From assembly GCA_000004695.1 (NCBI GenBank), contig CM000154.2, positions 4,160,001-4,224,000 of the forward strand: DNA of 64,000 bases, in the 5' to 3' direction. This DNA comes from Dictyostelium discoideum (lineage: Eukaryota). How positions within the stretch are numbered: the first letter of the stretch is position 1; each line of letters starts with the position of its first letter. The position numbers were made by a program, and so were the translations under genes. A model generated the notes under the pieces. That model did not search any database. It saw only the letters and a program-made list of their open reading frames with translations, and was not told where the DNA came from. Below, piece after piece: positions 16,823-45,504 of the stretch.

Positions 16823-18547
16823 ATGAATGAGTTTAAAATGCCAAATCATTTCATTCATAGTTTTATATATAATGAAAAAGTTTCACAACTTTTAGAAATT
16901 AGTAAATGTTTAATATCATTATCGAGTTATTATCAAGATTATTATCAACAATTAATTAATAAATCTTATAAATTAAACTCATCAACTTTAAAATCATATG
17001 AAAATGTTATTAAAATTTTAATTAATGATAAACCGGAGAAATTATTAACAATTGAAGAATTTGAAATTATTAAAGAGAAATTTAAAAATCAAAATATTTT
17101 AGAATTAAAAGTTTATGAAATTTGTTGTACAGATTCAAATGTACAATATTTATTTAAAATGATTTTACCATTCATATCATTATCAAAGCTATTAAATAAT
17201 CTATCATTCTATAAAATGAAATATAATGCAAATTATCATCGTGATCCAATTCATGATATTGTAAATTACCATAACCCAATTTCATTTGGCGATTATTTAG
17301 TTTTACAAAATTCAAATAATTCTAAAACAATAATTGAACAATTTTCAACAAATACATTATTTAAATATTGTAAATCTGATAAAGAAAAACAATTACAATT
17401 CATTTCAAATGTAATTAATGATATTATTAAATTTGAAAAATATGAAAATTTTAAAAATCAAAATCAAGAATTGGGTGAAAAAGTAGATGATGATGAACAA
17501 CAAATTAATCAATCATCATCATCAAGTGATTTAATTAATAGTTTTTTATCAACATTAATTGTATTAAATCAATATGAATTTATTAAATTAGTATTTGAAG
17601 AATTATCAAAAAGATTAATTAATCCAATAATATCAATACCATATTATTATTTCCTTTTATTAGATTCAATTGAAATTTTTGATTATTTATTTTTAAAAGT
17701 TAAACAACAACAACAAAAAGATCAAAAATTAAATAATGAATTAGATTTAAAACAATTTTTATTAATTAAAAATGAAATAATTATAAATCATTTTAAAGAG
17801 AAATATCCAGATAGTTATCATTTAATGGTTGAATTAATAATTAAAGAATTAAAATTAAATGCAAAAAGAAATTCAATTGATTTTAAATGTGTAAAGTATG
17901 CTTGGGATTTACATTTATTAGAATCAAAAGATGATTTTAAAATCATTTGGTATTCAATTATTATTGATGAATTAACATTTGATCAATACATTTGGTTAAT
18001 TCAAAGAACACCAAAATCAATTCCATATAGAATTGGTAATCTTAATAATAGTGATACCTATTTTAAAAATAATAATAATGATGATGAAGATGATAAAAAT
18101 TATTTTTCAAATTGTGGTAGTAATCCAAATAAAAATTTAATTCAAGTTTTTAAATGGATTGATGAAAATAAGAGAGACCATTTAGTTTCATCTGATCATC
18201 ATTTATATTGTTATTTTGATAATCAAGTATTTTATTTATTTAATTACTTTAATAAATCTTTAAATTTTTATATTGGATTATGTATTTCTCAATATTTCTT
18301 TAAATTTATGAATCCAGTTTGGAATCAAATTGCATTACGTGGTGATACTGAAACTTTAGGTAGAATAATGTCAACTTTCTTTTACAATGAACAACAATCA
18401 GTTAATGAAAAACATTATCTTTATAATTTCATTAAAAAGTCAACAATTTATGGAAACTTAAAAATTATTCAATTTTTAAATCAAAATTATCCTTTTGTTT
18501 TTCAAACATTTAAAGATTCTTCACAATCATTCTCATTTTCTTCTTCA

Positions 18548-18615
<68 letters not shown>

Positions 18616-18715
18616 TAATAATAATATTGATAATATTGATAATAATAAAAATAATAATAATACACCAACAAAAAAAAATAGATTCTCGGTAGCAATAACA
18701 AGTTTAATTAAAAAC

Positions 18716-19787: not shown

Positions 19788-35965
<16,178 letters not shown>

Positions 35966-36056: not shown

Positions 36057-37485
36057 AAATTGTAATCATAATAAATCAGATATTAAATTAGTAGAATCAC
36101 CAGAATATATATTTATTGAAGTTGAGAGATTTAAAAAAGGTCTTCCGTTCAATTCTAGTATTATAAACTTTGAAAAGAATATCAGTATATCAGAGTTATT
36201 GGGTAATTTTTCAAAAGATATTAATGGATTATATAATATTCAATCAATTCTTGTAAGTTTATAAATATATTTTTATTTTATATAATAATAATAATAACAA
36301 ACTAACTTTATAATTTATTTTTAGTCTTATGGTTCAAGAAATGATGAATTTGATTTTATTACAAGTAATGAAGGTCAATACTATCATCTTACTTCTAGTA
36401 GTTGCGTTAAAACATTGAATGAGTACAGTTTTAACGCAATAATAGAGTCACTCAACAACAACTGTAACTTTATCATTTTAAAGAAAGGTGGCTATATCAA
36501 AACAAGTCATATCAGCGATCCAGTTGATCCTTCTCTTTTAAATAAACCACCTATTCCATCAAGTGATAATGAAGAAGAAGAAGAAGATGATGATGATGAT
36601 GAAGTAAATGAAGATGAATATGAAAATGGAAATGAGGATGAAGATGAAGATGAGGATGAAGATGAAGATGAAGATGAAGATGAAGATGAAGATGAAGATG
36701 AAGATGAAGATGAAGATGAAGATGAAGATGAAGATGAAGATGAAGATGAAGATGAAGATGAAGAATATGAAGATGAAGATGAAGATGAAGATATTATTGG
36801 AGATGACGCTGAGGTTGAAAAAGAAAACAAGAATGGATTTTCTCATTTAGAATCACTACAAATTACACCAATACCTCACGACAAAGATGAAGAACAACCA
36901 GAAAAACCTCAACAACAAGAGATACATCAACAACCAGAGAAACCTCAACAACCAGAGAAACCACAAGAACTACAATCAACTGAAACACCAGGACAAGAAG
37001 TATCAGTTGATTATAAAATCCTTTATGACAGAAAAGCTTTCAAAGAATTTTTATACGGTGGATTCGAAAAATTCACTGAAGATTTGAAACTGCAAATCCT
37101 TGATGCCGGTATCAATTGTTTTTCAGTTTTATTAAATTTAAAGAGTGAAGACTGGTCAAAGTTTTCATTCTTACAATTACCAAAGAGAAATCAATTGGTA
37201 AATTCTTATAAGAAAATTCATAATGAAGCCATCAAAAAAGAGTATCCTTTCGAATCTCCTTTTGATATAGATGACCAAAAAGCCTACGAACAATTCCTTA
37301 AAGATATCGTTAATGATGAAAAAACTATAATGGATTTGGTTGAAGCTGGTTTTGACTCATTTACATCTTTAATTCCATCTGATGATGGCGGTTGGGAAGA
37401 AGTGTCTTTAAATTTACAAGAGATCCTTAAACCTGCGACATGTTTCAACTTAATCAATCAATTAAAATTGGTTGGAAAAGCATAA
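36057..37485 (+). CDS. Probable terminal exons of the giant AAA+ gene. Model: exon 36057..36252, intron 36253..36324 (GTAAGT…TTAG), exon 36325..37485. The product has an acidic (ED)n tract, PQQPEK repeats and two SAM-like C-terminal modules
   Basis: The frame of ORF 36415..37485 is open back to the acceptor at 36324, and the ORF-track start is TTG, not ATG. The upstream exon 36057..36252 is open from a stop at 36007 but contains no ATG. A GTTTGT at 35956 (two nt into the last codons of the giant ORF) and the TATAG acceptor at 36056 are phase-compatible (…SIKI-R-NCNHNKSDIKLVESPEYIFIEVERFKKGLPF…). No alternative start exists for this exon block. Confidence 0.5.
36636..36792 (+). repeat. (GAAGAT)n coding microsatellite, roughly 25 hexamer units, encoding a ~50-residue (Glu-Asp)n tract
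   Basis: Direct reading shows gaagatgaagatgaagat… with a few GAG/GAA variants. Confidence 0.9.
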
Positions 37486-37738
37486 TGAAAAATAAAAAAA
37501 TAAAAAAATAAAAAAAATAAATATAAAAAAAAAAAATATTAAGATATAATAAAAAAAATAAAATAAAAAAAATAAATAAGAAAATAAATGTTAATAATTA
37601 TTAATAACATTTTTTTTTTTTAATATATCAATAAAAGTTGAAATAAAGAGAAAAGAAAGAGAATAAATAAGAACAAACAAGAACAACAAAGAACAATAAC
37701 AAGAACAATAACAAGTACAAAAAATAAAACAATTAAAC

Positions 37739-38395
37739 AAAAATAAAAGTCTATTTCCCAAAACATTTTAGCAATTATCTTTTTTGATTAAAAAAGAAAG
37801 ATCTTTCTTACAACAAAACCAATTATGGATTCATTTATTTTTTTTTTTTTCCTCTGGTGGTGGATTTATGGTTAAAAAGATTTCATTATAATTTGGACAT
37901 TTCATCTTGTTCATTTTCATTTCGTCTTCATTATCTTTCTTCTTTTAATTGCTTAATTGATGTTCATTTGAAATAATCATTATTAATACAATTTGAAAAC
38001 TATTTTGAATAATTATAAAAAAAAAAATTAAATTCTTACAACTTTAAAAGGAATAGACATATTAATTTCATCAGACTAATTTTAACATATTAATTTCAGC
38101 CTTAAAACAGGTATATACATTAAAAAAACTTAAAATTTTATTTCCCAAAACATTTTAGCGATTATCTTTTTAATTAAAAAAGAAAGATCTTTCTTACAAC
38201 AAAACCAATTATGGATTCATTTATTTTGATTTGTTTTTTTTTTTCTTTTCTTCTGGCAATGAATTTATATTTTTTCAAGAATTTATTATCATTTGGACAT
38301 TTCATCTTCTTCAATTTTCATTTTGTCTTCATAATATTTCTTCTTTTTTAATAGCTTAATTGATATTCATTTGAAATAATAATATTTGGTTGGTT
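37739..38395. repeat. Two direct copies (37739..37990 and 38138..38395) of a ~250-bp non-coding segment, about 90% identical, each containing the perfect palindrome AAGAAAGATCTTTCTT and a CCCAAAAC motif
   Basis: The alignment by eye is tttcccaaaacattttagcRattatctttt…aaaaaagaaagatctttcttacaacaaaaccaattatggattcatttatttt…atttggacatttcatctt…cttaattgatRttcatttgaaataat. No ORF is conserved between the copies. The flanking sequence differs. Confidence 0.7.
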
Positions 38396-38514
38396 TATAT
38401 TTTTGACTGTAAAAAAAAAAATTTACCTTCGATTGAATTATTATTATAGTTGCTGCTTTTGTATTATTATTCAAGCATTTATTTTTACTATTTTCATTTT
38501 TTATGTTATTAATA

Positions 38515-38605
38515 CAATTAGTATTACTATTACTATTACTATTACTATTACTATTACTATTACTATTACTATTACTATTACTATTACTATTACTATTACT
38601 ATTAT
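38515..38605. repeat. (TATTAC)n hexanucleotide microsatellite, about 14 units
   Basis: The sequence reads agtattactattactattactattactatt…. The overlapping ORF-track entries 38403..38780(+) and 38501..38788(-) are repeat-translation artefacts. Confidence 0.9.
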
Positions 38606-38767
38606 ACCTCTTAAAAAGCCATTTGAGTTGTTGATAATAATGAGGAATCTCAATGGTAAAATGTTTATCATTTTTCTGGAACTAATTGCAACAAAGTTTG
38701 ATTCCAAATCTTTTATTAAAAATATTGCTTTTGTTTTCAAAGTGTGTGGTTTTTTTTTTCTTTCAAT

Positions 38768-38820
38768 AATCCATCCATAAATTTTCATTCTTTTGAAATT
38801 GAAAAGTTTATGGATGGATT
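38768..38820. other. Perfect 14-bp inverted repeat (AATCCATCCATAAA … TTTATGGATGGATT) with a 25-nt loop. This is a strong stem-loop in an AT-rich intergenic region
   Basis: The left arm is 38768..38781 and the right arm 38807..38820. The right arm is the exact reverse complement of the left. The stem has 6 G/C pairs, which is unusual for this sequence context. Confidence 0.6.
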
Positions 38821-39031
38821 TTTGAATGAAAAAAAAAATCCCATACTATACTACCAAATTAAAATGAAATTTTGTGGTAATGAAAATTAAATATCATTCA
38901 AAAATGTTAATGCCAAAAAAAGCCTCAACAATAATAATATTAGATAATTAAATCCATATTAAAAATAAAAAAAAATCGAAGTAATAAAAAAAAAAAAACT
39001 AGATTATAAATCAAATCAAAAAGAGGATAAA

Positions 39032-39175
39032 ATGGATATCGATAATGAGGAGGAAGAAGGTGATACCGATTTTGATCATAAACAAAAAGTTGATACTAAA
39101 CAACAACATGATGAAAATAAAAAATATCAATGCCAGATTAGAAACAAGATCAATTGTAACAAAAATAAAAAATAA
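39032..39175 (+). CDS. Small 47-codon ORF (MDIDNEEEEGDTDFDHKQKVDTKQQHDENKKYQCQIRNKINCNKNKK). Coding status is uncertain
   Basis: It has an ATG and a TAA. Local G+C is clearly higher than the surrounding spacer (gaggaggaagaaggtgataccgattttgatcat). It lies in a 2.8-kb interval with no other gene. It is below the 60-aa cutoff of the ORF track. Confidence 0.2.
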   Translation: MDIDNEEEEGDTDFDHKQKVDTKQQHDENKKYQCQIRNKINCNKNKK

Positions 39176-39268
39176 ATAACATTTAAGGAAGGCACAAGAA
39201 AAATCATTTTATTAAAATCCTAACTATTAAATGTACAATATGATATGTTTACTTCCAATTTGACAAAT

Positions 39269-39608
39269 AGTGTTGATAACTTTTTATGTCTCAAATTATT
39301 GATTTTACCGGCTACAGTGTTGATAACTTTTAACCACCAATAATATTTGGTGAATTGATTCTATAATTTTACCAATTTTTGAAAATACTTCTTGATAATT
39401 CCTACTTACATGTAAAACAATTAGTGTTGATAACTTTTCTTGAATTAAACTATAAGAGATGTGGATCCAATTGACAATTAGTGTTGATAACTTTTTTCGT
39501 CGTACACAAGAGAGTAACTCCTCACTAACAATTTGATAAAAAGTGTTAATAACTTTTTTTATCATGTATTATTACAATGATTAAGCTAATAGTGTTGATA
39601 ACTTTTTA
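39269..39608 (+). repeat. Array of six spaced copies (plus one degenerate copy) of a 17-bp motif, TAGTGTTGATAACTTTT, with unique 30-90 bp spacers. The motif has a GATA-type core (TGATAA)
   Basis: Motif starts are at 39269, 39316, 39423, 39480, 39542 (variant GTTAATAAC) and 39591, with a partial CTTGATAATTCC at ~39390. The sequence following copies 2 and 6 is also similar (TTAACCACCAATAATA… versus TTAACCCATAATAATA…). Confidence 0.7.
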
Positions 39609-40061
39609 ACCCATAATAATACTTTGAGAGTGGTGAATTTCCAAATAATTCCAGATACCATCTATTTTATTTTTTTTTTTTTTTTTTTTTTTTTATTAGC
39701 ACAATTTGAAAATGAATAATTAAAAAAAATAAATTAAATTCATACACATTTTAAAGGAATAGATTATAACTTTTGATTTTTATATGTAATAGCACACTTT
39801 TACATAAAAAAAAAAAAAAAAAAAAAAAAAACTTTCTTTTATACTCAGTCCAAAATCTTTAAAACCAAATTGTAAAATTTTATTTTTTCCAATTTTGGTA
39901 AATTAAAATATGAGATTTAATCCACAAATATATAAATGGTGATTGTTTTATCTTGATTCTTTTTAAAGTAATTTTTTCATTTAATCTAAAAGATTTTAAT
40001 TGAAAGTGAAAAATAGGGGTTTGCTGATTGATTAAAAAAAAAAAAAATAAAAAAAAAATAA

Positions 40062-40140
40062 AAAAAAAAATAAAAATAAAATAAAATAAAATAAAATAAA
40101 ATAAAATAAAATAAAATAAAATAAAATAAAATAAAATAAA
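40062..40140. repeat. (AAAAT)n pentanucleotide microsatellite (about 14 units), followed by (AAATT)5
   Basis: The sequence reads aaaataaaataaaataaaat… and then aaattaaattaaattaaatt. Confidence 0.9.
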
Positions 40141-40323: not shown

Positions 40324-41613
40324 TTAAAATAAAAAGTATAAAAATAGAGATACCATTATTAATAAGTATTTTGGTATATTCTTACAAGAGCTATTACCAT
40401 CACTATTCTTTTCGAGTAATTCATTTGAGCTTGAGTGATGAATAAAAGGTGGTGGAGGTGTTCCCCTTTTATGTAATGGTGTTGGTGATACGTTTTCTTC
40501 AGAATCCGAAGATGATGAGTCCATAATTGGCAATGGTGATGCTGATACTGATACTGATGTTGATGCTGATGCTGATTCTGATGCTGATTCTGATTCTGAT
40601 GCTGATGCCGATGGTGATGGTGATTCAGATTGAGAAGATTTACTCTCACTATCTTTTTTTTTATCTTCACTACTAGATTCATTAAACTCACTAGATGCTT
40701 GAATAACCTCTTCAGATGAAGATGGTTTTTCTGTAGAAATTGACATTGGTCTAGAGGATATTGGTGTTTGAGTTGGAGTTGGAGTTTGAGTTTGAGTTGG
40801 TGTTTGGCTTGGTGTTTGAGTCGGGGTTGGTGTTTGACTTGGTGTTGGAGTTGGTGTTTGACTTGGTGTTTGACTTGGTGTTTGACTTGGTGTTTGACTT
40901 GGTGTTTGACTTGGTGTTGGTGTTTGAGTTGGTGTTTGAGTTGGTTTTGGTGTTTGACTTGGTGTTGGTGTTTGACTTGGTGTTTGAGTTTGGGTTGGTG
41001 TTAGTGTTTGAGTTTGAGTTGGTGTTGTTGTTTGAGTTTGAGTTGGTGTTGGTGTTTGAGTTGGTGTTGGTGTTTGGCTTGGTGTTTGACTTTCCTCTAA
41101 TGATGATGATGGTGATGGTGATGGTGATGGTGATGGTGATGGTGATGGTGATGGTGATGGTGATGGTGATGGTGATGGTGATGGTGATGGTGATGGTGAT
41201 GGTGATGGTGATGGTGATGGTGATGGTGATGGTGATGGTGATGGTGATGAGTTTGGATCTAATTCACCACATTTTACTTTAATAAAAGAGTTTAATTCTA
41301 ACCATTCACCATTGCAAGTTAAAGCTTTAGTCATTTCGAAAGCATTTGATCTTGTTGAGCATTGATTATTTTTATAAACATCGAAAATATAACCATTGGT
41401 TAATCTTTTTTTAACGGAAAATGAACGTGTTAATTGATCTTGTTGATCGACATTCTCATCTTTACATATTAAATAACTACATCTATTAGCAAGTGTTACA
41501 TTCTTTATAATACCACCATCTTTACAATTTAAACAAACTGTAAAAATTGTAGTATCAATTGAATATATACCAACTAATACATTAAAAAACAATACTACAA
41601 ATAATAATATTTT

Positions 41614-41616
<3 letters not shown>
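40324..41616 (-). CDS. Secreted, probably GPI-anchored, cell-surface glycoprotein of the PsA (prespore antigen)-like class. It has an N-terminal Cys-rich globular domain, an (SP)24 tract, TQTP/SQTP mucin-like repeats, an acidic Ser-rich tract, and a C-terminal hydrophobic tail
   Basis: There is a signal peptide ([19 protein letters not shown]). The N-domain motifs YKNNQCS…[21 protein letters not shown] parallel PsA (EYTTNQCT…TFTCADQ…WSGVCKI). (GGTGAT)24 on the plus strand at 41107..41247 encodes SPSPSP…. The C-terminus …[22 protein letters not shown] is a GPI-signal-like tail. Confidence 0.7.

Positions 41617-44191: not shown

Positions 44192-45504
<1,313 letters not shown>

What the first reader, a model, noticed from the sequence alone, without database searches (positions are those of the whole stretch)
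39269..39608. Array of six evenly spaced TAGTGTTGATAACTTTT motifs (GATA-like core) in a gene desert between two convergent genes
A 17-bp motif recurs six times at 47-107 bp spacing, separated by unique sequence. The architecture superficially resembles repeat-spacer arrays, but in a eukaryotic AT-rich spacer it more plausibly marks clustered binding sites. The TGATAA core suggests a GATA-family factor, possibly serving as an enhancer or silencer, a replication or segregation element, or the relic of a small mobile element's terminal repeats. It sits about 700 bp 3' of gene 40324..41616 and about 100 bp downstream of a 47-codon G/C-enriched small ORF (39032..39175).
Basis: seen in the sequence. 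Interest (0 to 1): 0.55.

Follow-up and report, generated by a model that had tools for sequence, protein, structure and literature searches.

The report
Conserved six-copy DNA motif array, Dictyostelium
A 17-base DNA word really does occur six times in a 340-base non-coding stretch of Dictyostelium discoideum chromosome 5; it exists only in D. discoideum and its closest relatives and the word is better preserved than the DNA between its copies, so it is probably a cluster of docking sites for an unidentified DNA-binding protein, but not a classic GATA site and not a CRISPR-like array.

Summary
There are six same-strand copies of TAGTGTTGATAACTTTT (0, 1, 0, 0, 2 and 0 mismatches) at window 39268-39606. 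The window is D. discoideum AX4 chr5:4160001-4224000, so the array is chr5:4199268-4199606. Five copies match with at most 1 mismatch, against 0.00 expected from shuffles. Spacing is uneven: 47, 107, 57, 62 and 49 bp.

The array forms a 27% GC island in 11% GC surroundings, between two convergent genes. All four other D. discoideum-clade assemblies have the same six copies in the same order. The orthologous site in D. citrinum (two assemblies), D. dimigraforme and D. firmibasis lacks it.

Across the five genomes, 95 of 102 motif columns are invariant with no indels, against 214 of 268 ungapped spacer columns (p about 2e-4 to 2e-3). Spacer lengths drift. Copy-specific variants are shared by orthologues, so this is selection rather than homogenisation.

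It is not coding, has no structured-RNA signal, matches no Rfam family and is not a classical tandem repeat. The G of the "GATA" core is the most variable position (9 of 30 instances lack GATA). The constrained word is AGTGTT-N-ATAACTTT.

Best reading (about 0.45): a homotypic cluster of binding sites for an unknown protein. Main rival: a relic of mobile or foreign DNA. Function is untested, and interest is moderate to low.

The parts
39268..39284 (+). motif copy 1, TAGTGTTGATAACTTTT (exact)
   Evidence: Orthologous copy in L003-L006.
39315..39331 (+). motif copy 2, CAGTGTTGATAACTTTT (1 mismatch; the C is shared by all five genomes)
39422..39438 (+). motif copy 3 (exact; invariant in all five genomes)
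39479..39495 (+). motif copy 4 (exact in AX4; G8->T in L005 and L006)
39541..39557 (+). motif copy 5, AAGTGTTAATAACTTTT (2 mismatches; no GATA core)
39590..39606 (+). motif copy 6 (exact)
39256..39267 (+). upstream companion element CAATTTGACAAA of copy 1. Similar elements lie at 39467-39478 (copy 4) and 39529-39540 (copy 5).
   Evidence: (families D1 and D4)
39392..39398 (+). degenerate extra TTGATAA inside the long spacer between copies 2 and 3
39185..39655 (.). conserved, GC-richer (26.8% for 39251-39660) non-coding island that holds the array. Conservation among the five D. discoideum-clade genomes begins and ends here.
39609..39616 (+). ACCCATAA, which matches the DUSE consensus and sits in a block that is nearly invariant across the five genomes. 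No RNA gene lies about 60 nt downstream, where the T-run is.
39665..39694 (+). T30 run directly after the array, present in all five genomes
39695..40035 (.). further conserved non-coding block linked to the array in all five genomes. It consists of a 107-bp block, an A26 run (39805-39831), then about 200 bp.
   Evidence: (I5)
37570..40118 (.). segment with no counterpart at the orthologous site of D. citrinum, D. dimigraforme or D. firmibasis. Its left part (to about 39180) is structurally variable between D. discoideum-clade strains.
39032..39175 (+). 47-codon ORF, annotated DDB_G0290519 (chr5:4199032-4199175). Not conserved as an ORF, and probably not part of the feature.

Best explanation
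The array is a homotypic cluster of binding sites for one unidentified sequence-specific DNA-binding protein. It sits in a roughly 470-bp non-coding island that is specific to the D. discoideum clade.

The selected word is bipartite, AGTGTT-N-ATAACTTT. It contains the near-palindrome GTTnnnAAC. This suggests a dimer or a two-subdomain reader rather than a single GATA zinc finger.

The copies act independently of exact spacing (a 'billboard' arrangement). The module probably arrived at this site already formed and has since been kept by purifying selection on the motif.

The most likely output is local transcriptional or chromatin control. One option is an upstream activating array for an unannotated transcript that starts behind the T30 run and runs into the conserved 39695-40035 block. 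The other is a protein roadblock or boundary between the two convergent genes.

Shown here: the reality of the array, its non-coding nature, its lineage restriction and the extra conservation of the motif. Inferred: protein binding, the bipartite reading and the regulatory output.
For: - Non-random array: 5 copies at 1 mismatch or fewer, against 0.00 expected, all on one strand.
- Same six copies in the same order in four other assemblies.
- Motif columns are 95/102 invariant with no indels. Spacer columns are 214/324 invariant, or 214/268 without gap columns. Fisher p is 1e-8 and 0.0016; binomial p is 1.8e-4.
- Copy-specific variants are inherited by orthologues, so there is no concerted evolution.
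- Units [1+2] and [5+6] are an old duplication. The motif is 31/34 identical, the rest 51/85, and the inner spacer 13/30.
- Spacer lengths change between strains (62 to 49 bp, 107 to 118 bp) while the motifs stay. This fits independent sites, not a coding frame or a folded RNA.
- The island is more conserved than other intergenic DNA of the same genomes: 83-93% against 77-90%.
- It is a 27% GC island in 11% GC flanks.
- There is no RNA structure signal on either strand, z = +0.3 and +0.8, and no Rfam hit.
- The longest ORF across the array has no relative among 5.8 billion proteins, and strain indels are not multiples of three.
- A T-run directly downstream is typical of Dictyostelium promoters. 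This point rests on general knowledge, not on a test here.
Against: - There is no binding, chromatin or expression evidence of any kind.
- No known Dictyostelium factor is reported for this word.
- Both neighbouring genes point their 3' ends at the array, so there is no obvious target gene.
- The lncRNA catalogue (File S4 of PMC5295588) has no coordinate beginning 4198 or 4199, so no catalogued transcript starts or ends within chr5:4198000-4199999.
- Sister species manage without the array, with the same two genes only about 180-200 bp apart.
- The conservation contrast rests on five genomes, two of them nearly identical. Alignment anchoring on the repeats may inflate it.
- A perfectly conserved 15-17-bp word is long for a typical transcription-factor site.
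Confidence: 0.45

Rival explanations
1. The array is a relic of mobile or otherwise foreign DNA with no present host function. Examples are the subterminal transposase-binding repeats of a DNA transposon, the enhancer repeats of a solo LTR, or the iterons of an integrated nuclear plasmid. In this reading the motif once served the element's own protein.
For: - The 1.7-3 kb segment carrying the array is absent from the orthologous site in D. citrinum (two assemblies), D. dimigraforme and D. firmibasis.
- The internal duplication, about 40% diverged outside the motif, looks older than the species splits, where intergenic DNA is about 26-33% diverged. This suggests the array was inserted already formed.
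- It is a GC island, like Dictyostelium transposons and coding DNA.
- The site is a hotspot of rearrangement. L004 has a FNIP-repeat ORF, L005 and L006 have a partial gene duplication, and D. firmibasis has an unrelated gene.
- Repeat length and copy number resemble iterons or subterminal repeats.
Against: - The motif is more conserved than the spacers after insertion. A dead relic would not show this.
- There is no inverted second cluster, no TIR and no recognisable target-site duplication.
- There is no second copy in the 64-kb window or in about 150 kb of related loci.
- There is no transposase or Rep remnant: no Pfam hit in neighbouring ORFs and no tblastx signal.
- There is no match in the plasmid, phage or viral collections.
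Confidence: 0.25
2. The array works at the RNA level. It would be part of an unannotated non-coding transcript in which the 17-mer is a protein-binding or processing element. Alternatively it is a row of short Pol III-type transcripts, each with a unique 5' part and a common 3' handle ending in the T4-7 run.
For: - Every copy ends in T4-T7, a Pol III terminator-like run.
- A DUSE-like ACCCATAA is conserved next to copy 6.
- The whole 39185-40035 block is conserved and non-coding.
- Gene predictors in two assemblies drew an exon into the array.
Against: - There is no fold signal on either strand and no Rfam family at gathering score.
- There is no box C/D, Class I or hairpin feature.
- There is no repeated promoter element in front of each unit.
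- The unique parts tolerate 11-14-bp indels between strains, and T-runs are lost in some orthologous copies.
- No catalogued lncRNA transcript starts or ends within chr5:4198000-4199999, and no miRNA is listed at chr5:4199100-4199699.
- About 60 nt downstream of the DUSE-like word lies only a T-run.
Confidence: 0.1
3. This is the first reader's reading: a cluster of sites for a GATA-family zinc-finger factor (Dictyostelium has many), acting as an enhancer or silencer through the TGATAA core.
For: TGATAA fits WGATAR in 5 of 6 AX4 copies. GtaC ChIP peaks are enriched for a GATA-like motif (PMC4506546).
Against: - The G of GATA is the least conserved motif position, and 9 of 30 orthologous instances lack GATA while the flanks are intact.
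- Conservation covers 15-17 bp, far beyond a GATA core.
- The GtaC DNA-binding domain prefers GATC in vitro.
Confidence: 0.1
4. The array is a horizontally acquired bacterial DnaA-box cluster (an oriC- or iteron-like region) from a food bacterium or symbiont, now fixed in the nuclear genome.
For: - The reverse complement AAAAGTTATCAACACTA contains TTATCAACA, one mismatch from the DnaA box TTATCCACA.
- The variable motif position is the N of TTATNCACA.
- Exact two-copy scans of bacterial, metagenome and viral collections returned DnaA-box clusters whose boxes share up to 16 of 17 bases with the motif.
- The array is a GC island flanked by an extremely AT-rich stretch, and appears to have been inserted already formed.
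Against: - It lies in a eukaryotic nuclear locus present in five assemblies, with no bacterial gene nearby.
- Dictyostelium is not known to have a DnaA (general knowledge, not tested here), yet the motif is under constraint.
- All boxes are in one orientation at 45-118 bp spacing, unlike the dense mixed-orientation bacterial clusters.
- The 9-mer is common in this AT-rich genome, with 8 copies elsewhere in the window.
- The spacers match nothing in the plasmid, phage or viral collections.
- The resemblance was found post hoc.
Confidence: 0.04

Closest known systems
Homotypic clusters of transcription-factor binding sites (cis-regulatory modules)
   Same: Several copies of one short word lie within a few hundred bp. 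Spacing is flexible. The word is conserved more than the intervening DNA, and the context is non-coding.
   Different: The word is long (15-17 bp, near-perfect). All copies are on one strand. The array lies between the 3' ends of two genes with no obvious target. No factor is known.
Sal-box/TTF-I (Reb1-type) terminator and fork-barrier arrays downstream of rRNA genes (comparison from general knowledge)
   Same: An approximately 18-bp motif is repeated many times in one orientation at irregular spacing, in a spacer downstream of gene 3' ends. Function there depends on a bound protein and on orientation.
   Different: This is not an rDNA locus. There is no sequence similarity. No Myb-type factor has been shown to bind. 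Sister species lack the array although they have the same convergent genes.
Subterminal transposase-binding repeats of DNA transposons, and plasmid iterons
   Same: The motif is 17-21 bp, occurs about six times in direct orientation within about 350 bp, sits next to very AT-rich DNA, and the segment is inserted relative to sister species.
   Different: There is no second, inverted end, no TIR or TSD, no transposase or Rep gene, and no other copy seen. Spacing is irregular, whereas iterons are usually about 22 bp apart. The motif was still under constraint after insertion.
Bacterial DnaA-box clusters
   Same: The core 9-mer is one mismatch from the consensus. Extended boxes in some bacteria are identical at up to 16 of 17 positions. 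An AT-rich flank is present.
   Different: This is a eukaryotic nuclear genome, Dictyostelium is not known to have a DnaA, the copies are in a single orientation, and the spacing is wide.
CRISPR repeat-spacer arrays
   Same: The superficial layout is the same: an identical short repeat separated by unique sequence.
   Different: The repeat is too short (17-21 bp). Spacers range from 30 to 90 bp. The spacers are orthologous and conserved between strains rather than newly acquired. There are no cas genes, and the host is a eukaryote.

Membership tests
CRISPR array | Repeats of about 23-55 bp with spacers of nearly uniform length | tested here: not met
   The repeat is 17-21 bp. Spacers are 30, 90, 40, 45 and 32 bp.
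CRISPR array | Prokaryotic or viral context with cas genes, and spacer content that differs between strains | tested here: not met
   The locus is Dictyostelium chr5. The same six units with orthologous spacers occur in five genomes. Flanking ORFs have no Pfam hit.
GATA-factor binding-site cluster | A WGATAR core that is the conserved part of the site | tested here: not met
   The core is present in 5 of 6 AX4 copies, but the G of GATA is the most variable position. Nine of 30 orthologous instances lack GATA while the flanks are kept.
GATA-factor binding-site cluster | Occupancy by a GATA factor | not testable with these tools
   The text and legends of the GtaC ChIP-seq paper do not mention this locus, and no occupancy data for chr5:4199268-4199606 were available.
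Homotypic transcription-factor site cluster (cis-regulatory module) | Motif over-represented locally and conserved above the intervening sequence | tested here: met
Homotypic transcription-factor site cluster (cis-regulatory module) | Protein binding and an effect on transcription | not testable with these tools
   This needs EMSA or pull-down, ATAC or ChIP, and a reporter or deletion experiment.
DNA transposon end / MITE | Terminal inverted repeats and a target-site duplication at the insertion borders | tested here: inconclusive
   No inverted copy of the motif exists. The only long inverted repeats are A/T homopolymers. The borders lie in low-complexity A/T DNA and cannot be placed.
DNA transposon end / MITE | Multiple dispersed copies in the genome | not testable with these tools
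   No tool scans the Dictyostelium genome. There are none in the 64-kb window or in related loci. No predicted protein anywhere overlaps a similar ORF.
Plasmid iterons / replication origin | Regularly spaced (about 22 bp) direct repeats next to a rep gene | tested here: not met
   Spacing is 45-118 bp and variable. There is no rep-like ORF and no plasmid match.
Bacterial DnaA-box cluster (oriC) | 9-mers matching TTATNCACA | tested here: inconclusive
   TTATCAACA has one mismatch, at a consensus position. The same variant is used next to canonical boxes in bacterial contigs.
Bacterial DnaA-box cluster (oriC) | Bacterial replicon with DnaA and neighbouring replication genes | tested here: not met
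   The context is a eukaryotic nuclear locus in five assemblies, with no bacterial-type genes.
Dictyostelium Class I RNA or other DUSE-driven ncRNA gene | Covariance-model match and a DUSE about 60 nt upstream of the RNA start | tested here: not met
   There is no Rfam hit. The DUSE-like word at 39609 is followed at +60 by a T-run.
box C/D snoRNA cluster | Box C (RUGAUGA) and box D (CUGA) with terminal stem | tested here: not met
   The only hit is 20 bits, E = 7.1, against a gathering score of 50. Reading the sequence directly, there is no CUGA on either strand of the array.
Tandem repeat / minisatellite | Head-to-tail copies of one unit | tested here: not met
   TRF reports only A/T-rich simple runs. 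Units share little outside the motif.
Protein-coding exon with repeated peptide | Open frame kept across orthologues, with homologues | tested here: not met
   Copies fall in different frames. Strain indels of 11 and 14 bp occur. The 87-aa ORF has no homologue.

The most novel reading that the evidence does not exclude
The array is a captured replication-origin-type element: a DnaA-box or iteron cluster from a bacterial symbiont, prey bacterium or extrachromosomal replicon. It entered the ancestor of the D. discoideum clade already formed and has since been co-opted, its boxes now read by a host protein and kept under selection. This would be a bacterial origin module domesticated as a eukaryotic chromosomal element.
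Probability: 0.04. Interest if true: 0.8.

Novelty: new member of a known kind. Interest (0 to 1): 0.35.

Why it matters
If the binding-site reading is right, the locus gives a clean natural substrate for identifying a new Dictyostelium DNA-binding specificity. It offers six near-identical 17-mers and natural variants that map the tolerated position.

It is also a dated example of a lineage-specific non-coding module gained between two convergent genes, in a genome whose cis-regulatory code is poorly known. It shows too that this convergent-gene junction is a hotspot of structural turnover among close relatives.

It does not bear on a major open question unless the foreign-origin reading proves true.

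Tried and rejected
- **CRISPR-like array:** rejected on repeat length, spacer lengths, conserved spacers and eukaryotic context.
- **Structured RNA:** RNA folding of both strands is no better than shuffles. Rfam shows nothing at gathering or permissive thresholds. There are no tRNA genes.
- **Coding:** six-frame reading, Pfam on neighbouring ORFs and a homology search of the 87-aa ORF across the array found nothing.
- **Small ORF DDB_G0290519 as a real gene:** rejected. It has frameshifts in L005 and L006, its start is deleted in L004, and it is absent in L003.
- **Local origin:** blastn and tblastx of the island against the rest of the window gave only one 78-bp match, 39693-39763 to 37980-38057.
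- **Plasmid and phage collections:** no match.
- **Viral contigs:** no array, and no match to two conserved non-motif stretches. The 11-mer pair scan gave only coding YGVDNP repeats and DnaA-box clusters.
- **Literature:** the motif string appears only in unrelated primers. Nothing in the lncRNA or miRNA catalogues lies at these coordinates. No paper mentions the neighbouring gene IDs in a relevant way.
- **AX4 annotation:** a look-up of the AX4 record for its own annotation failed.
- **Insertion borders:** TIRs and TSDs could not be defined in the A/T low-complexity flanks.
- **D. purpureum:** synteny is broken, so it is uninformative.

Full report
**Where this is.** The window is about 20% GC. 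Its ORFs have typical Dictyostelium low-complexity proteins. The ORF at 44662-45504 is part of DDB_G0290523 of D. discoideum AX4, on a 5,125,352-bp contig. A supplementary table of PMC5295588 places DDB_G0290519 at chr5:4199032-4199175 (+). That is exactly the 144-bp ORF at window 39032-39175. So window coordinate + 4,160,000 gives the chr5 coordinate, and the array is chr5:4199268-4199606.

**The observation.** There are six + strand copies of TAGTGTTGATAACTTTT at 39268, 39315, 39422, 39479, 39541 and 39590, with 0, 1, 0, 0, 2 and 0 mismatches.
- At 1 mismatch or fewer there are 5 hits, against 0.00 in shuffles.
- No other copy exists in the window.
- Spacing is 47, 107, 57, 62 and 49 bp, which is not even.
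- Copies 1, 4 and 5 have an upstream CAATT(T)GAYAAW element. Copies 2 and 6 share a downstream AACCnnnAATAATA element.
- Nine TTGAYAA, all on the + strand, fall in 342 bp.
- TRF does not see a tandem repeat.
- The array has 26.8% GC, in flanks of about 11%.
- It lies in the 2.8-kb gap between the stop codons of two convergent genes, at 37485 and 40324.

**What it is not.**
- No tRNA genes.
- No Rfam family at gathering score. The permissive scan gives only chance-level hits.
- Neither strand folds better than shuffles, z = +0.27 and +0.77.
- The repeats fall in different frames. The longest ORF across them (87 aa, - strand) has no relative among 5.8 billion proteins.
- Neighbouring ORFs have no Pfam domain.
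- The small ORF upstream (DDB_G0290519) is frameshifted, truncated or absent in the related genomes.
- No similar DNA in the plasmid or phage collections.

**Comparative evidence.** I fetched the orthologous locus from nine other assemblies through orthologues of DDB_G0290523.
- The four D. discoideum-clade assemblies (L003-L006) each carry the same six copies in the same order.
- D. citrinum (two assemblies) and D. dimigraforme have no copy. There the two convergent genes are only about 180-200 bp apart, and window 37570-40118 has no counterpart.
- D. firmibasis also lacks the array and has an unrelated Cys-rich gene in the gap.
- In D. purpureum synteny is broken.
- Within the D. discoideum clade, the DNA left of about 39180 is structurally variable. 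L004 has a FNIP-repeat ORF, L005 and L006 have a partial copy of the large gene's 3' end, and AX4 has a roughly 390-bp tandem duplication.
- In contrast, 39185-40035 is conserved in all five genomes. This block comprises the array island, a T30 run, a 107-bp block, an A26 run and about 200 bp more.

**Selection.**
- In the five-genome alignment, 95 of 102 motif columns are invariant and none has a gap. Outside the motif the figures are 214 of 324, or 214 of 268 if gap columns are dropped. Fisher p is 1e-8 and 0.0016; binomial p is 1.8e-4.
- Spacer lengths drift, from 62 to 49 bp and from 107 to 118 bp in L003.
- The C at position 1 of copy 2 and the A at position 1 of copy 5 are shared by all five genomes. 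The G8->A variant of copy 5 is shared by four of the five. So the copies are not being homogenised. The similarity between them is maintained, not regenerated.
- Units [1+2] and [5+6] are an old duplication of about 115 bp. The motif is 31/34 identical, other aligned columns 51/85, and the inner spacer 13/30.
- That 40% divergence is above the 26-33% seen between AX4 and D. citrinum or D. firmibasis in other intergenic DNA. This suggests, but does not prove, that the array is older than its presence at this site and was inserted already formed.
- The island is 83-93% identical to AX4 in the four relatives, against 77-90% for other intergenic segments and 86-98% for coding segments.

**Reading the motif.**
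- All variation inside the 17-mer falls at positions 1, 8, 9, 13 and 17. Position 8, the G of GATA, changed at least three times independently.
- Nine of the 30 instances have no GATA, yet AGTGTT and ATAACTTT are intact. The constrained word is therefore AGTGTT-N-ATAACTTT, which contains the near-palindrome GTTnnnAAC.
- This argues against a canonical GATA finger. That the G of GATA is essential for GATA fingers is general knowledge, not something tested here. GtaC's DNA-binding domain prefers GATC in vitro (PMC4506546).
- It favours a larger, probably dimeric or two-part, recognition surface.

**An unexpected resemblance.**
- Scans of bacterial, metagenome and viral collections for two exact copies of the core returned a handful of contigs. 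The word occurs there within clusters of DnaA boxes (TGTGGATAA/TTATCCACA), with up to 16 of 17 bases identical to the Dictyostelium motif.
- The reverse complement of the motif contains TTATCAACA, one mismatch from the DnaA box. The variable position 8 coincides with the N of TTATNCACA.
- I treat this as a lead only. The 9-mer is common in this genome. The bacterial clusters are dense and of mixed orientation. Adjacent genes did not confirm an origin. Dictyostelium is not known to have a DnaA (general knowledge, not tested here). The spacers match nothing.

**Mechanism.**
- The most likely reading (about 0.45) is a homotypic cluster of sites for one unidentified DNA-binding protein, in a lineage-specific non-coding module.
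- Its output is unknown. The T30 run directly behind the array and the conserved block beyond it fit the Dictyostelium promoter layout of upstream elements, an oligo-dT stretch and then the start site. That layout is general knowledge. It suggests an unannotated + strand transcript.
- A protein roadblock or boundary between the convergent genes is an alternative, by analogy with Sal-box/TTF-I arrays.
- Against a required role in the flanking genes, three related species do without the array.
- No catalogued lncRNA transcript starts or ends within chr5:4198000-4199999, and no miRNA is listed at chr5:4199100-4199699. The lncRNA check was only partial, because it was made by coordinate prefix.

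**Rivals.**
- Relic of mobile or foreign DNA (0.25). It is favoured by the insertion and the turnover at this site. It is disfavoured by post-insertion constraint and by the lack of ends, enzyme genes or other copies.
- An RNA-level element or a row of short transcripts (0.10).
- A genuine GATA-factor cluster (0.10).
- Bacterial DnaA-box capture (0.04).

**Verdict.** The feature is real, non-random and conserved but lineage-restricted. Its kind is familiar: a clustered sequence-specific protein-binding motif. Its word and its binding protein are unknown. The key untested point is whether the word occurs elsewhere in the Dictyostelium genome. None of the available tools can answer that, and a one-minute genome scan would.

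Noticed in passing
L008, L010, L013, L017, L018/L023 (bacterial, metagenome and IMG/VR contigs): Clusters of canonical DnaA boxes mixed with a TGTTGATAA variant. The flanks of that variant match the Dictyostelium 17-mer at up to 16 of 17 bases (for example TAGTGTTGATAACTTT in L017). This extended box recurs across unrelated bacterial contigs.
   Followed up: partly
window 39032-39175 (DDB_G0290519): The annotated 47-codon gene is not conserved as an ORF in close relatives. It is frameshifted in L005 and L006, has its start deleted in L004, and is absent in L003. It is probably not a protein-coding gene.
   Followed up: yes
window 37732-37980 and 38119-38383: About 250-bp units repeated in tandem, with a 386-403 bp period and 84-94% identity, lie in the strain-variable part of the gap. 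They are followed by an (ATTACT)n microsatellite at about 38520-38605.
   Followed up: partly
window 39665-39694 and 39805-39831: A T30 run and an A26 run form a perfect 27-nt inverted pair around a conserved 107-bp block. Both runs are present in all five D. discoideum-clade genomes. Window 39693-39763 also resembles 37980-38057 (82%).
   Followed up: partly
L004:16512-18161; L005:16550-17040 and 18189-18650; L014:15844-17199: The junction between the same two convergent genes holds different cargo in each lineage. One D. cf. discoideum has a FNIP-repeat ORF. Two 'D. discoideum' assemblies have a duplicated 3' end of the large gene. D. firmibasis has a Cys-rich secreted-protein gene. D. citrinum and D. 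dimigraforme have nothing. The site is a structural-turnover hotspot.
   Followed up: partly
L005, L006 compared with the window: Assemblies labelled Dictyostelium discoideum differ from AX4 by about 3-9% in coding and 10-15% in intergenic DNA at this locus. That is more than I would expect within one species, from general knowledge.
   Followed up: no
window 20243-35965 and 36415-37485: A 5240-codon uninterrupted ORF is followed by an ED-rich ORF. Orthologous gene models (5532-6335 aa) treat the second ORF as the last exon of the same giant gene. No Pfam domain was found in the terminal part.
   Followed up: no
L006, region orthologous to window 40003-40035: The G-rich element GAGGGGGTTTGC is present as a perfect inverted duplication (a hairpin) in one strain only.
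   Followed up: no
PMC5295588 File S6: The 'nearest neighbour' listed for two chr5 lncRNAs at 4.14 Mb is DDB_G0290519, 59 kb away, although the window shows many genes in between. The table's neighbour assignment looks unreliable in this region.
   Followed up: no
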